This document shows, piece by piece, positions 24,001 through 27,000 of a stretch of DNA of 64,000 nt (its first letter is position 1; every line of letters begins with the position of its first letter). Location: assembly GCA_963701855.1 (NCBI GenBank), contig CAVPBK010000006.1:512001-576000 (forward strand), in the 5' to 3' direction. The position numbers were made by a program. Origin of the DNA: Nitrospirota bacterium. GTDB lineage: Bacteria; Nitrospirota; Nitrospiria; Nitrospirales; Nitrospiraceae.

Positions 24001-27000
24001 AGCGGCGCTCCGCCGAATTCCGCGTAATCGATTCGCTTCTTTAAGTTCAGCAGCGGCTTGGCAATGAGCGGGTAGGCCAAACGGCCGAAGAAGGATCCGG
24101 AGATTTCCTTCACCAGCAATTTCTTGATCGTATCTGCGACTCCCTCGGAAATCTTCAGCGCGACGTTCCCGATGAAACCATCGCACACCACGACATCAGC
24201 GCTCCCACTATACACATCACGACCTTCGATATTACCGATGAAGTTAATCGGGCTGGCTTTGAGAAGCTTGAACGCCTCCTTCGTAACCTCATTCCCTTTG
24301 CCGTCTTCTTCCCCGATACTCAGCAGCCCAACACGTGGGTTGGGCTTCCCAAAAAGATATTTGCCATACTCATTCCCCATGATGGCAAATTGGGCCAGAT
24401 GCTGAGCCGTACAGTCCACGTTCGCCCCCACATCCAACATAATCGCCGTACCGGTCAGCGTGGGCAAGCTTGTTGCGATTGCCGGACGCTCGACACCCTT
24501 CGTCAGCCCGAGCACAAAAAACGATGCCACCATGCTGGCGCCGGTATTCCCGGGACTGACTACAGCGCTCGCCTCACCGCTCTTGACCAATTCAGTGGCA
24601 ACCCAGATTGAAGAATCCCGCTTCTTCCGGGCGACGGTAGCCGGCGACTCGTGCATCTCGACGACCTGCGAAGCGTGCCGAATAGACAGGCGGGGGTCCG
24701 TGCAGCCGAGACGGCGACATTCCGCCGTGAGCGTAGCTTCGTCACCAACCAGAAGCACTTCAACATCACATTCCTGGGCGGCCTGGAGAGCCCCCTCAAT
24801 GGCTGGGGCCGGCCCATGGTCACCGCCCATGACATCAAGCGCAATCTTCATAGAGGTTGAGTATTCACCGACTGATGACGTGTCACGCGGTCACGAAAGA
24901 AGAGCAGCCGTCACCACGCTACATGCGGTAGGATTTTAGTTCAGTGAACTGATCGACGCAACAGGCAAACCGATCTCATCACGTCGTGATCCATGAAACC
25001 ACCGAGCCCAACAAGCACGGCGCAACGGCCCCATCACGAGCCAGCCGAGCAGGCTGTTCAAAAAGGCCGTCCGGCAAGGCCGCAACGAACGAAGAGGCGA
25101 CGCGTACTCCGTCCCGTACGTGGAGTCTCTGAGCAACGTGAGAACGCCGCTGGCGGACTTTTTCAACAGCCTGCTAGGATTCTTCGACCTGGATAACCGC
25201 CTTGCCCTTGTATGTTCCGCAATTCAAACAGGTGTAATGCGGCAGCTTGATCTCGTGGCACTGCGGACAGACGGACATGCCTGGCGGGGTGATGCGCAAT
25301 TTTTGTGTGCGCCGCTTGTCGCGTCGTTCCCGTGAATGTTTATGTTTCGGATTTGGCATGGCAACTCCTTCTTACTTTCGATAACAGGCGGTCACGCTAC
25401 GATGCTGACGATCCGCCGGTCTTGCGTTTCATGCTCTGGACCACCCGAAATGTCGGAATCGGTGGTTCCACGGCACACTGACAAGATCCCTCATTCAAAT
25501 TGTTCCCACATCGCGCACAGAGCCCCAAGCAATCGTCACTACAGAGCGGCTGCATCGGCGCAGATAGGATCACATGTTCACGCAGCATAGGAGCCAGTTC
25601 CAACTGATTACCCTGATAGTGATATTGATCGTCGGGCTCCTCTTCTGGTTCGGCCTCCACCACCTCCGCACGCGTCTTGCGATGGTCGACTCGCTTCGGA
25701 TGACGCGGCGCTGGCTTAGGCTCAGGAATAAAGGCCGCCCGTACGGAAAAAGCCAGCGGATCCTCAAACTCCGTCAAGCACCGCACACATTCACGGACAA
25801 TCGTGCCTTCCAGCACACCGGTCACGGCAACCAGCCCTTCAATCTTAGTCAGGTCCAGACTCACCGCCAACGGACCTAGGACCACAACGTCATCCTCGGT
25901 AAGGTCGAGTTCCTCAGCCGTCACTTCGCCAACCAGCGAGAGCCCATCAATAGTGATGTCGGCCAGCAGCGGTCTGAGCAGTTCCATCGTGGCACCTACC
26001 TGCATTCCCATCCCCAACGTGACCAGTTATCGCTCTTCCGCAAAGCTGATGAGTGCGATGTGCCGAGCTCGCTTGACGGCGGCCGTCAATTCACGCTGAT
26101 GCCTCATGCAATTGCCGGAGATGCGCCGCGGGACAATCCGACCCCGCTCAGTTAAAAAGTTTCTCAACAGCCCAACATCTTTGAAATCGATCGACCCTTT
26201 GTCGATACAAAACCTGCAAGGCCGTCTGCGTTGAAAAAACCGTCCTCCACCGCCGCCGTCTCGATCTCCACCTTGTTGTTCACGCTCCATAAACCGTCTC
26301 CCTATTTGTTAGACGTGCTCGTCGGATTCATACCCGGCATCATCGTGCACAGGAGCCTCAGTCCCGACACCCCCGCCACCGCCATCCTGGCGTTTCGGCA
26401 TGAACGTCACCGTTTGGGCCACCACCTCGTGCTTGCTGCGCTTCTGGCCGTCTTCCGTTTCCCATCGGCGCTGCTGCAACCGCCCATCGACGATGATTCC
26501 GTTCCCCTTGCTGAGATACTGTCCGCAATGTTCCGCCTGCTTGCCGAAGACGACAATGTCGACAAAGCAGACTTCTTCTTTCAATTCATCGCCCTGCTTG
26601 TATCGCCGACTGACCGCGAGGCCCAAACTGGCCACCGGGGTCCCGTTCGGCGTATACCGCAGCTCAGGATTCCGTGTGAGGTTCCCGAGGAGAACGACTT
26701 TATTAAATCCGGCCACCGGCAAATTCCTCCGATGACGCCTCGAGCGGCCGTGGCGGCACTAGTTCTTTTTTGAGGTGGACGGTCAAAAACTTGATGATCG
26801 TATCTTCCAGCCGATAGGAGCGCTCTAATTCACCCACCGTGATGTTGGGCGCTCTGAAGTAGAAGTAGGCGTACGTGCCCTTCCGCTCCCGCTTCACCTC
26901 GTAGGCAAGTTTCTTCTTGCCCCAATTTTCTGACTTGATGAACTGCGCGCCGGTCTTCTCCGCCACCGCCTTCATCTTCTCAATCAAGGCAGTGGTCTCC

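What a model noticed while it worked through the whole genome (the two positions that open the first line are those of the whole stretch)
25049..25173. Order-wide 126-nt hairpin repeat that docks on TAG stop codons
A 126-nt perfect-hairpin repeat (16-nt terminal inverted repeats CAGGATGCTGAAAAAG, no target duplication) occurs about 150 times in this genome, and a third of the full-length copies begin at the very base after the stop codon of a co-oriented gene, nearly always TAG (example given: behind rpmF). I read it as a one-sided, strand-specific mobile hairpin of the REP/IS200-IS605 kind that inserts directly 3' of stop codons and has been kept as a ready-made 3' end (stop-abutting stabiliser or terminator) for hundreds of genes. 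It is kept at 85-98% identity across genera of the whole order Nitrospirales, which a merely selfish MITE should not be, so it would be a lineage-defining functional RNA/DN [...]
Evidence so far: Self-BLAST of intergenic DNA: >100 partners per copy; BLASTN with one copy: 146 hits on 14 of 15 contigs, 81 full length. Consensus folds to one hairpin, -63 kcal/mol. Base triplet just 5' of the 81 full copies: TAG 39, TAA 7, TGA 3. 27 of 81 start exactly 1 nt after the stop of a co-oriented called gene (21 TAG, 4 TAA, 2 TGA), e.g. rpmF, rimO, radA, trpC, fliE, thiG, pepA, although genome stops are TGA 1945, TAG 1295, TAA 1274. TAG triplets outside genes on both strands: 14,075, so a TAG-seeking element would meet a stop codon 8% of the time; seen 21 of 39 (binomial P<1e-11; calls 96,97). 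Relatives: hit at E<=1e-8 in 88 of 121 sampled Nitrospirales (45 of 47 Nitrospiraceae; 20 of 23 genera) [...]
(Added by a program. Inside this text positions count along the whole contig: contig position 512,001 is position 1 of the stretch shown here. "Call 12" and the like, gene names such as g00115 and contig names such as C1 are that model's own, and its searches are not shown. The text may have been shortened before it was handed on; [...] marks where a part breaks off. The agent that wrote the report below was given it as the finding of a first reader that could run no searches.)

Follow-up and report, generated by a model that had tools for sequence, protein, structure and literature searches.

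The report
Stop-codon-landing miniature transposon family
The hairpin repeat is the front part of an ordinary small cut-and-paste transposon whose preferred landing word (CTAG and close variants) contains a stop codon and is duplicated on insertion, so it can sit right behind genes without harming them.

Summary
The repeat family is real: 209 loci, 95 of them full-length hairpins. Its left flank is strongly YTAG/YTAA. 35 of 95 copies start exactly after the stop codon of an ORF of at least 60 codons, and the family occurs in 117 of 151 sampled genomes of the order.

Empty and filled sites in close relatives show that the mobile unit is often about 190-200 nt: the 125-nt hairpin, a ~76-nt tail, and a second right terminal inverted repeat. 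It is flanked by a 4-bp YTAR target duplication.

Low-copy IS1182/IS5-like insertion sequences (DDE transposase) in this genome and in relatives carry near-identical terminal repeats and CTAG/TTAG duplications. The IS200 copies and the RAYT gene have unrelated ends. So this is a classical MITE, not an IS200/IS605- or REP-type hairpin.

Docking happens at both ends (13 left, 9 right, of 34 copies with both ends defined). It exceeds a uniform-YTAR null of 15% (20 of 34).

The best reading is target specificity plus regeneration of the stop codon by the duplication, plus selective filtering. A selected 3'-end function is not shown. Orthologous hairpins evolve only slightly more slowly than third codon positions. 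This is a new member of a known kind, of modest interest.

The parts
25050..25173 (-). Hairpin module of the element (the reported copy). Its left TIR is CAGGCTGTTGAAAAAG and its internal right TIR is CTTTTTGAACAGCCTG.
   Evidence: Filled in G015, G014 and G018; 5'-truncated in G017, G021 and G005; no insertion directly after the stop in at least 12 other same-genus relatives.
25174..25176 (-). Together with the preceding C it forms the CTAG target word.
   Evidence: In relatives the same stop position reads TAG, TAA or TGA, with or without the element.
25046..25049 (-). CTCG between the hairpin and the pre-insertion flank (GCTGG...). It is either a decayed right copy of CTAG or the first 4 nt of a lost tail.
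   Evidence: Filled versus empty alignment. The same CTCG follows two other short copies.
19155..19343 (+). Long-form copy (hairpin, ~60-nt tail, terminal TIR TTTTTCAACAGCCTG) that is present only in this genome. Flanking TTAG at 19151-19154 and 19344-19347.
   Evidence: Absent from G015, G018, G108 and G094, which carry a single TTAG. The right TTAG supplies the TAA stop of the minus-strand ORF 19344..20597, 417 aa.
29913..30110 (+). Long-form copy (hairpin, 76-nt tail, terminal TIR TTTTTCCGCAACCTG). Flanking TTAG at 29909-29912 and CTAG at 30111-30114.
   Evidence: Present in G000 and G015 and absent from G108, G094, G018 and G136. The right CTAG supplies the TAG stop of the minus-strand ORF 30111..31145, 344 aa.
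1317..1441 (+). Further full-length hairpin copy in the window.
   Evidence: nhmmer hit at C6:513317-513441.
62164..62287 (-). Further full-length hairpin copy in the window, with left flank CTAA.
   Evidence: nhmmer hit at C6:574164-574287. Also present in G015.
11763..11931 (-). Variant or partial copy: both ends of the hairpin model around a different middle.
   Evidence: nhmmer partial hits at C6:523763-523807 and 523877-523931.
27238..27316 (-). Partial copy (model positions 1-79).
   Evidence: G015 carries a full copy at this site.
41131..41174 (-). Partial copy (model positions 1-44). A lone tail module lies nearby at 40882-40955.

Best explanation

Structure. The element has a left terminal inverted repeat (consensus CAGGATGCTGAAAAAG). 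The left ~60 nt is repeated in inverted form, which makes the hairpin and creates an internal right repeat. In many copies a ~76-nt tail follows, ending in a second right repeat (TTTTTCCGCAGCCTG).

Insertion. It inserts at the word YTAR, with CTAG preferred over TTAG and CTAA, and duplicates those 4 bp. YTAR contains TAG or TAA on both strands. An insertion into a stop codon that lies in such a word leaves an intact stop next to either end of the element, so the gene's protein is unchanged.

Inferred, not shown. Insertions at other YTAR sites, in genes and in promoter regions, are removed by selection, which leaves stop-codon-abutting copies over-represented. TAG dominates because the transposase prefers CTAG/TTAG. 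The few TGA cases are later drift of the stop codon. The order-wide spread reflects an old family that is re-mobilised from time to time by rare, low-copy insertion sequences.
For: Target duplication and true ends:
- Two insertions in the window are absent from relatives. They are units of 189 and 198 nt flanked by TTAG..TTAG and TTAG..CTAG, and the empty alleles carry one TTAG.
- G015 C12:56692 is filled as CTAG[..]CTAG where this genome has a single CTAG.
- A short copy, G015 C12:147573, is flanked by TTAG..CTAG.
- Of 29 copies with a complete tail, the 4-mer after the tail equals the left 4-mer in 6 and matches 3 of 4 bases in 11. It is mostly CTAG or CTAA, and one pair is ATAA..ATAA.

Parent insertion sequences:
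- C15:64760-66134 is 1375 bp, with TIR CAGGCTGTTGACAAAC at both ends and CTAG on both sides. It holds one ~400-aa frame with a single in-frame stop. Pfam finds DUF772 and DDE_Tnp_1, and the best NCBIfam model is IS1182.
- Intact 405-aa copies occur in relatives. A second group (42-46% aa identity) has TIR CAGGCTGCGGAAAAAC, which equals the tail's terminal repeat, with CTAG or TTAG duplications.

Both ends dock:
- Of 34 copies with both ends defined, 13 dock at the left end, 9 at the right and 20 at either. The null of stop-overlapping YTAR among all non-CDS YTAR sites is 0.151, giving P = 6e-9.

Selection signal:
- Copies fall in divergent (promoter-only) regions in 10 cases against 21.4 expected. 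7 of those 10 in fact abut an uncalled ORF.

Stop drift:
- The rpmF stop reads TAG, TAA or TGA among relatives.

No coding signal:
- The frame after the stop is open in 14 of 35 docked copies and 29 of 60 other copies.
Against: - Docking stays above the null where promoters cannot explain it. In convergent regions 13 of 23 copies are docked against a null of 0.23.
- Survivorship alone would need only about 12-20% of non-coding YTAR sites to be permissive.
- 54 of 95 hairpins have no recognisable tail, and only 2 of these 54 have YTAR directly after the hairpin. I read most of them as decayed or truncated tails, but that is an inference.
- No mobilisation has been shown. The only IS copy in this genome has an in-frame stop, and the IS was found in only 14 of 151 sampled genomes of the order.
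- Similarity between the IS and the MITE is limited to the ~16-nt terminal repeats.
- The gene map is my own crude ORF caller (4,596 genes, 81% coding). It missed rpmF, so the nulls are approximate.
Confidence: 0.75

Rival explanations
1. The element is a MITE, but copies behind stop codons are kept because the hairpin serves the host as a 3'-end module. Possible roles are an mRNA stabiliser, a bidirectional terminator (GC-rich stem between an A5 and a T5 run), or a brake on translation termination.
For: - Docking is enriched even in convergent regions, 13 of 23 against a null of 0.23.
- Without the two loci whose interior was replaced, orthologous hairpins differ by about 4.5% between G000 and G015. 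Third codon positions differ by 7.1%, and the tail by about 7.6%.
- 10 of 17 consensus pairs show compensated double changes.
- The consensus shows GAAAAAG and CTTTTTG flanking a GC-rich stem.
Against: - Both orientations dock, 13 left against 9 right, so the hairpin need not be next to the stop.
- The G-U to A-C ratio is the same (about 3.7 to 1) in left-docked and undocked copies.
- Between G000 and G015, copies at at least 6 sites differ in their interior, were replaced or were lost.
- The terminator scan reports nothing at this copy, and Rfam has no match.
- Compensated pairs fall into subfamilies shared by several copies. That pattern also fits spread from master copies.
- There are no transcript data.
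Confidence: 0.2
2. The transposase itself prefers stop-codon contexts, for example through local DNA features at gene ends. On this reading docking is an insertion bias rather than a result of selection.
For: 5 of 7 clean insertions that are absent from a close relative's allele sit on the stop of an ORF of at least 60 codons.
Against: - Full-length IS copies of the same kind in relatives are docked in only 4 of 14 cases, not distinguishable from the null of 0.15 (P = 0.15).
- No base preference is seen beyond position -4 on the left flank.
- 'Fresh' here still means after about 4-5% sequence divergence, which leaves time for selection to act.
Confidence: 0.15
3. One reading: a one-sided single-strand hairpin element of the REP/IS200-IS605 kind that inserts 3' of a tetranucleotide without duplicating it.
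For: The left flank YTAG lies next to a hairpin foot, and most tail-less copies lack a duplication directly after the 125-nt hairpin.
Against: - A 4-bp duplication is seen once the true right end is used.
- The element has 16-nt terminal inverted repeats shared with DDE insertion sequences.
- The three IS200 copies end in unrelated hairpins, and the RAYT gene is flanked by a repeat with only 4 hits in the genome.
Confidence: 0.02

Closest known systems
IS5-type and IS1182-type insertion sequences and the MITEs derived from them (family properties recalled from ISfinder-type knowledge, not from a call)
   Same: DDE transposase with DUF772 and DDE_Tnp_1 domains. About 16-nt terminal inverted repeats. 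A 4-bp duplication of YTAR-like words (CTAG, TTAG, CTAA), as recalled for IS5.
   Different: The non-autonomous form is a fold-back of its own left end plus a tail that carries the terminal repeat of a second, related IS group. It has hundreds of copies, while the IS itself is rare or broken (14 of 151 genomes).
Correia/NEMIS elements of Neisseria and ERIC elements of enterobacteria (recalled)
   Same: MITEs of about 100-150 nt with inverted repeats that fold into long hairpins when transcribed. They sit between genes, are often co-transcribed, and are spread across a whole clade.
   Different: Those duplicate TA. Here the duplication is YTAR, which is itself a stop codon on both strands, and that gives the exact abutment to stops. 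RNase III processing and the promoter or terminator effects known for those elements were not tested here.
REPINs/REP elements with their RAYT transposase (recalled; Bertels and Rainey)
   Same: Hairpin-forming repeats in hundreds of copies that persist over long times in a lineage.
   Different: REPINs go with a single-copy RAYT gene flanked by the repeat and have no target duplication. Here the RAYT gene is flanked by another, rare repeat, and a duplication and DDE-type ends are present.
REP sequences within about 15 nt of a stop codon that lower translation through ribosome stalling in E. coli (recalled: Liang, Rudd and Deutscher 2015; not found in the held library)
   Same: A stable hairpin placed directly after a stop codon.
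   Different: That is a shown physiological effect of another repeat class. Here any effect on termination is untested.

Membership tests
Bacterial MITE (non-autonomous DDE-type element) | Terminal inverted repeats | tested here: met
   The left repeat is CAGGATGCTGAAAAAG, the internal right repeat CTTTTTGAGCATCCTG, and the terminal right repeat of the tail TTTTTCCGCAGCCTG.
Bacterial MITE (non-autonomous DDE-type element) | Target site duplication | tested here: met
   Filled versus empty alleles show TTAG/TTAG, CTAG/CTAG and TTAG/CTAG. 6 of 29 tail-bearing copies match exactly and 11 of 29 match 3 of 4 bases. This is not seen directly after most tail-less hairpins (2 of 54).
Bacterial MITE (non-autonomous DDE-type element) | Small and non-coding | tested here: met
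   The elements are 125-200 nt. Open frames are no commoner in docked than in other copies.
Bacterial MITE (non-autonomous DDE-type element) | An autonomous relative with the same ends and the same duplication | tested here: met
   IS copies of 1314-1384 bp carry CAGGCTGTTGACAAAC or CAGGCTGCGGAAAAAC ends and CTAG/TTAG duplications. Similarity is limited to the terminal ~16 nt.
Bacterial MITE (non-autonomous DDE-type element) | Presence/absence polymorphism at orthologous sites | tested here: met
   Seen at the rpmF site, at window 19155 and 29913, and at several sites between G000 and G015.
Bacterial MITE (non-autonomous DDE-type element) | Mobilisation by the cognate transposase | not testable with these tools
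   This needs a transposition assay.
IS1182/IS5 family (for the parent IS) | DDE transposase of that family | tested here: inconclusive
   Pfam finds DUF772 (7.6e-22) and DDE_Tnp_1 (1.2e-5). The NCBIfam IS1182 model scores 157 and 57 bits on the two halves, under the 270-bit cut-off, because this copy is split by a stop. IS5_4 is second best.
IS200/IS605-derived element (PATE) or REP/REPIN | No inverted terminal repeats and no target duplication; insertion 3' of a fixed word | tested here: not met
   Inverted repeats and a 4-bp duplication are present.
IS200/IS605-derived element (PATE) or REP/REPIN | Ends or hairpins shared with a Y1 (HUH) transposase gene of the genome | tested here: not met
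   There are four PF01797 hits. The three IS200 copies have unrelated end hairpins. The RAYT gene is flanked by a repeat with 4 hits in the genome.
Intrinsic (bidirectional) terminator | GC-rich stem directly followed by a U run, with termination shown | tested here: inconclusive
   The consensus has T5 after the inner GC-rich stem on both strands. The stem-loop is about 90 nt, and the pattern scan finds nothing at the copy. No 3'-end data are available.
Any Rfam family | Match to a covariance model | tested here: not met
   No match up to E = 1 in window 24000-26500.

The most novel reading that the evidence does not exclude
Stop-codon docking is more than survivorship. A transposon family whose 4-bp target is a stop codon on both strands may have become a lineage-wide layer at gene ends. 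On this reading, placing a stable hairpin one base after the stop changes termination, ribosome release or mRNA decay for hundreds of genes, and such copies are preferentially kept. The supporting hints are the excess in convergent regions and the slightly slowed evolution of the hairpin.
Probability: 0.15. Interest if true: 0.6.

Novelty: new member of a known kind. Interest (0 to 1): 0.3.

Why it matters
The work replaces an exotic reading (a single-strand hairpin element that seeks stop codons) with a simple one. A DDE-type MITE whose duplicated target word is itself a stop codon can use gene ends as safe landing sites.

This is useful for annotating genomes of this order in three ways:
- Hundreds of spurious small ORFs and 'conserved intergenic hairpins' belong to one transposon superfamily.
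- The terminal repeat occurs 688 times in this genome.
- Gene-end polymorphisms between close species are often these elements.

The residual 2-4-fold excess at stop codons is a clean, testable case for separating insertion bias from selection.

Tried and rejected
- Read-through or coding of the element. The frame after the stop is open in 14 of 35 docked copies and 29 of 60 other copies, and the next frame in 21 of 35 and 32 of 60, so there is no coding signal.
- Rfam gave no match.
- RAYT and IS200 as mobilisers have unrelated ends.
- Strand-specific RNA selection, tested by the excess of G-U over A-C. The ratio is the same in the left-docked and undocked classes.
- The terminator pattern scan found nothing at the copy.
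- Automated indel boundaries with mafft were unreliable. I replaced them with anchor-based views.
- A search for kb-size elements bounded by the family's repeats mostly found pairs of separate small elements around ordinary genes.
- Earlier notes of this scan held nothing on this repeat.
- Literature searches:
  - Nitrospira plus MITE.
  - MITE/CTAG/stop codon/TSD.
  - IS1182/CTAG.
  - MITEs/termination codon.
  - REP/termination codon/tmRNA.
  None of these gave a description of this family or of YTAR-MITE docking on stop codons.
- Papers read:
  - Passages only of PMC12542641, which was irrelevant.
  - Passages only of two reviews, PMC10969869 and PMC3184786. A term search found 'stop codon' in neither.
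Full report
**What is at the coordinates**

The reported copy lies on the minus strand at window 25050-25173. Its sequence runs CAGGCTGTTGAAAAAG ... CTTTTTGAACAGCCTG. As RNA it folds at -61.2 kcal/mol (z = -2.7 against shuffles). It closes through its ends, but the interior pairs differently from a single perfect hairpin. Rfam has no match in window 24000-26500.

**The family**

BLASTN with this copy gives 142 HSPs on 13 of 15 contigs, 66 of them full-length. A profile built from those 66 finds 209 loci, 95 of them full-length. The consensus is 125 nt and starts CAGGATGCTGAAAAAG.

Orientation is unambiguous: only 2 of the 95 also hit weakly on the other strand. The triplet before the 95 copies is TAG in 44, TAA in 11 and TGA in 4. 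Position -4 is C in 49 and T in 25, so the left flank reads YTAR: CTAG 25, TTAG 11, CTAA 8.

35 of 95 copies abut the stop of an ORF of at least 60 codons, and 31 of 95 an ORF of at least 100 codons. In relatives, I examined the 40 best-scoring copies from a dozen other genomes. 28 have a stop triplet on the left, and 20 abut an ORF of at least 100 codons. These copies are not independent of those in this genome.

**The turn: the unit is longer and has a target duplication**

I compared window 15001-35000 with five relatives: G015 at 95-96% identity, the others at 85-88%.

- The copy at 19155 belongs to a 189-nt insertion found only in this genome. It ends in a second right repeat (TTTTTCAACAGCCTG) and is flanked by TTAG on both sides. 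The four relatives for which a locus covering this site was fetched (G015, G018, G108, G094) carry one TTAG.
- The copy at 29913 belongs to a 198-nt insertion shared only with G015. It ends TTTTTCCGCAACCTG and is flanked by TTAG and CTAG.
- The extra ~76 nt is itself a repeated 'tail' module. It has 80 hits in the genome, 47 of them directly 3' of a hairpin locus. 33 of the 95 full hairpins carry it at genome-wide thresholds, and 41 in a more sensitive local search.
- After 29 complete tails, the next 4-mer is mostly CTAG (9) or CTAA (3). It equals the left 4-mer in 6 and matches 3 of 4 bases in 11, and one pair is ATAA..ATAA.
- G015 C12:56692 is CTAG[element]CTAG where this genome has one CTAG. 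A short, tail-less copy, G015 C12:147573, is flanked by TTAG..CTAG.

The rpmF copy is an old short form. It is filled in G015, G014 and G018, 5'-truncated in G017, G021 and G005, and in at least 12 other same-genus relatives nothing is inserted directly after the stop. The insertion there equals the hairpin plus CTCG, lying between TAG and GCTGG.

**Who moves it**

The genome has four Y1-transposase hits. Three are IS200 copies with unrelated end hairpins. The fourth is a RAYT-like gene flanked by a repeat with only 4 hits in the genome.

Searching for inverted pairs of the family's terminal repeat gave a 1375-bp element at C15:64760-66134. Both ends read CAGGCTGTTGACAAAC and both sides carry CTAG. 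It holds one ~400-aa frame with a single in-frame stop. Pfam finds DUF772 and DDE_Tnp_1, and the best NCBIfam model is IS1182, under its cut-off because the frame is split.

The protein was found in 14 of 151 sampled genomes of the order, all in the window's family, several with an intact 405-aa frame. Ten of the eleven close copies whose ends were located have YTAR words (mostly CTAG or TTAG) on both sides. A second group at 42-46% identity has ends CAGGCTGCGGAAAAAC, which is exactly the tail's terminal repeat, again with CTAG or TTAG duplications. Beyond the ~16-nt ends, no similarity between IS and MITE is seen.

The terminal repeat (3 or fewer mismatches) occurs 688 times in the genome, 442 of them outside hairpin loci. 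The hairpin family is therefore one member of a larger set of small elements with the same ends.

**Docking re-examined**

YTAR reads as YTAR on both strands, so either end of the element can abut a stop. Among 34 copies whose tail end is defined, 13 are docked at the left end, 9 at the right and 20 at either. Two fill the whole gap between convergent genes. Both window insertions that are missing from relatives are docked by their tail end, on ORFs 19344..20597 and 30111..31145. Overall, 44 of 95 copies are docked at some end.

The fitting null is the share of stop-overlapping sites among all YTAR sites outside called genes: 1066 of 7052, or 0.151.

By region type, copies lie in tandem, convergent and divergent gaps in 59, 23 and 10 cases, against 52.1, 18.5 and 21.4 expected from YTAR counts. 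7 of the 10 'divergent' cases abut an ORF my caller missed, so promoter-only gaps are strongly avoided. In convergent gaps alone, 13 of 23 are docked against a null of 0.23.

Full-length IS copies in relatives are docked in 4 of 14 cases, which cannot be told from the null. Of 7 clean insertions missing from a relative's allele, 5 are docked.

TAG dominance follows from the CTAG/TTAG preference, which is also seen at the IS copies. The TGA cases fit later stop-codon drift, as seen at rpmF, whose stop reads TAG, TAA or TGA among relatives.

**Is it conserved as a functional RNA?**

I compared 16 full-length copies shared with G015:

| Region | Identity, all 16 loci | Identity without the 2 replaced loci |
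|---|---|---|
| Hairpin | 91.4% | about 95.5% |
| Next 80 nt | 90.0% | about 92.4% |
| Flanks | 93-95% | not computed |

Codon positions 1, 2 and 3 of 94 neighbouring genes are 98.1, 99.0 and 92.9% identical. The hairpin therefore evolves somewhat more slowly than third positions, and the tail at about their rate.

10 of 17 consensus pairs show compensated changes, but these fall into subfamilies shared by several copies. The G-U to A-C ratio is about 3.7 to 1 in left-docked and undocked copies alike. Between G000 and G015, at least 6 sites hold elements with the same ends but different interiors, and others are filled in one genome only. No frame is preferentially open.

**Distribution**

The hairpin is found in 117 of 151 sampled genomes of the order: 60 of 62 in the window's family, and 41 of 62, 13 of 21 and 2 of 5 in the other three families. 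It is found in 3 of 160 genomes of the phylum sample outside the order. These genomes are samples, and many are incomplete assemblies.

**Verdict**

This is a DDE-type MITE family of IS1182/IS5-like ancestry with a YTAR duplication. The hairpin is a fold-back of its left end. Stop-codon docking is real, two-ended, and mostly explained by the target word being a stop codon that the duplication preserves, plus selection against other sites. A residual excess and mild hairpin constraint leave room for a host function or an insertion bias.

**Limits**

- The gene map is my own ORF-based caller.
- Relatives are not independent.
- The tails of 54 copies are unrecognised.
- No experiment or transcript data support any function.

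Noticed in passing
Whole genome; e.g. C14:19474-19761, C4:192914-193240, C6:1275753-1276108, C6:1451751-1452215 (outside the window): The terminal repeat CAGGATGCTGAAAAA (3 or fewer mismatches) occurs 688 times, 442 of them outside the hairpin loci. Many pairs bound other small elements of 275-470 nt with different interiors and YTAR on both sides. This points to a superfamily of MITEs sharing one transposase.
   Followed up: partly
G000 versus G015 at C6:1359563, C6:1354332, C6:184455, C13:35005, C6:188661, and window 27238-27316 (C6:539238): At the same insertion site the two genomes carry elements with the same terminal ~25-30 nt but different interiors. This suggests either interior swapping by recombination between family members or repeated use of one site.
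   Followed up: partly
C10:23116-23239 and C6:581944-582067 (the latter lies just beyond the window's end): These two copies are docked at both ends. They lie between convergent ORFs whose stop codons would have shared one CTAG palindrome before the insertion.
   Followed up: no
C13:75348-76826, C14:87391-88899, C6:1466861-1468787, C9:298079-300224: Segments of 1.5-2.1 kb are bounded by inverted copies of the family's repeat with YTAR on both sides. They contain ordinary-looking ORFs and no transposase. They are probably two separate small elements flanking a gene, but composite mobilisation was not excluded.
   Followed up: no
G015 C2:22786-22871 (locus pieces L164-L166): A second MITE-like family has ends GAGCCTGTCCGACA...TGTCGAACAGGCTC. 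It is inserted at TCCTAG in G015 and absent from this genome, and it also has a YTAG flank.
   Followed up: no
L034 (C11:85849-89193): The RAYT-like gene (229 aa) sits between inverted 25-nt repeats (AAACGGTGTCAGGAACAGTTTTCTA), with a 204-nt tandem duplication on one side. This repeat has only 4 hits in the genome.
   Followed up: partly
In G016 a second copy of the element sits about 100 nt further downstream, after CTCTAA.
   Followed up: partly
left and right flanks of copies genome-wide: Where the element's left end faces the start of an opposite-strand gene, the flank often shows the complement of a ribosome-binding site (CTCC...) within 2-30 nt. Many insertions fill very short spacers inside operons, between one gene's stop and the next gene's ribosome-binding site, for example window 19120-19347.
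   Followed up: partly
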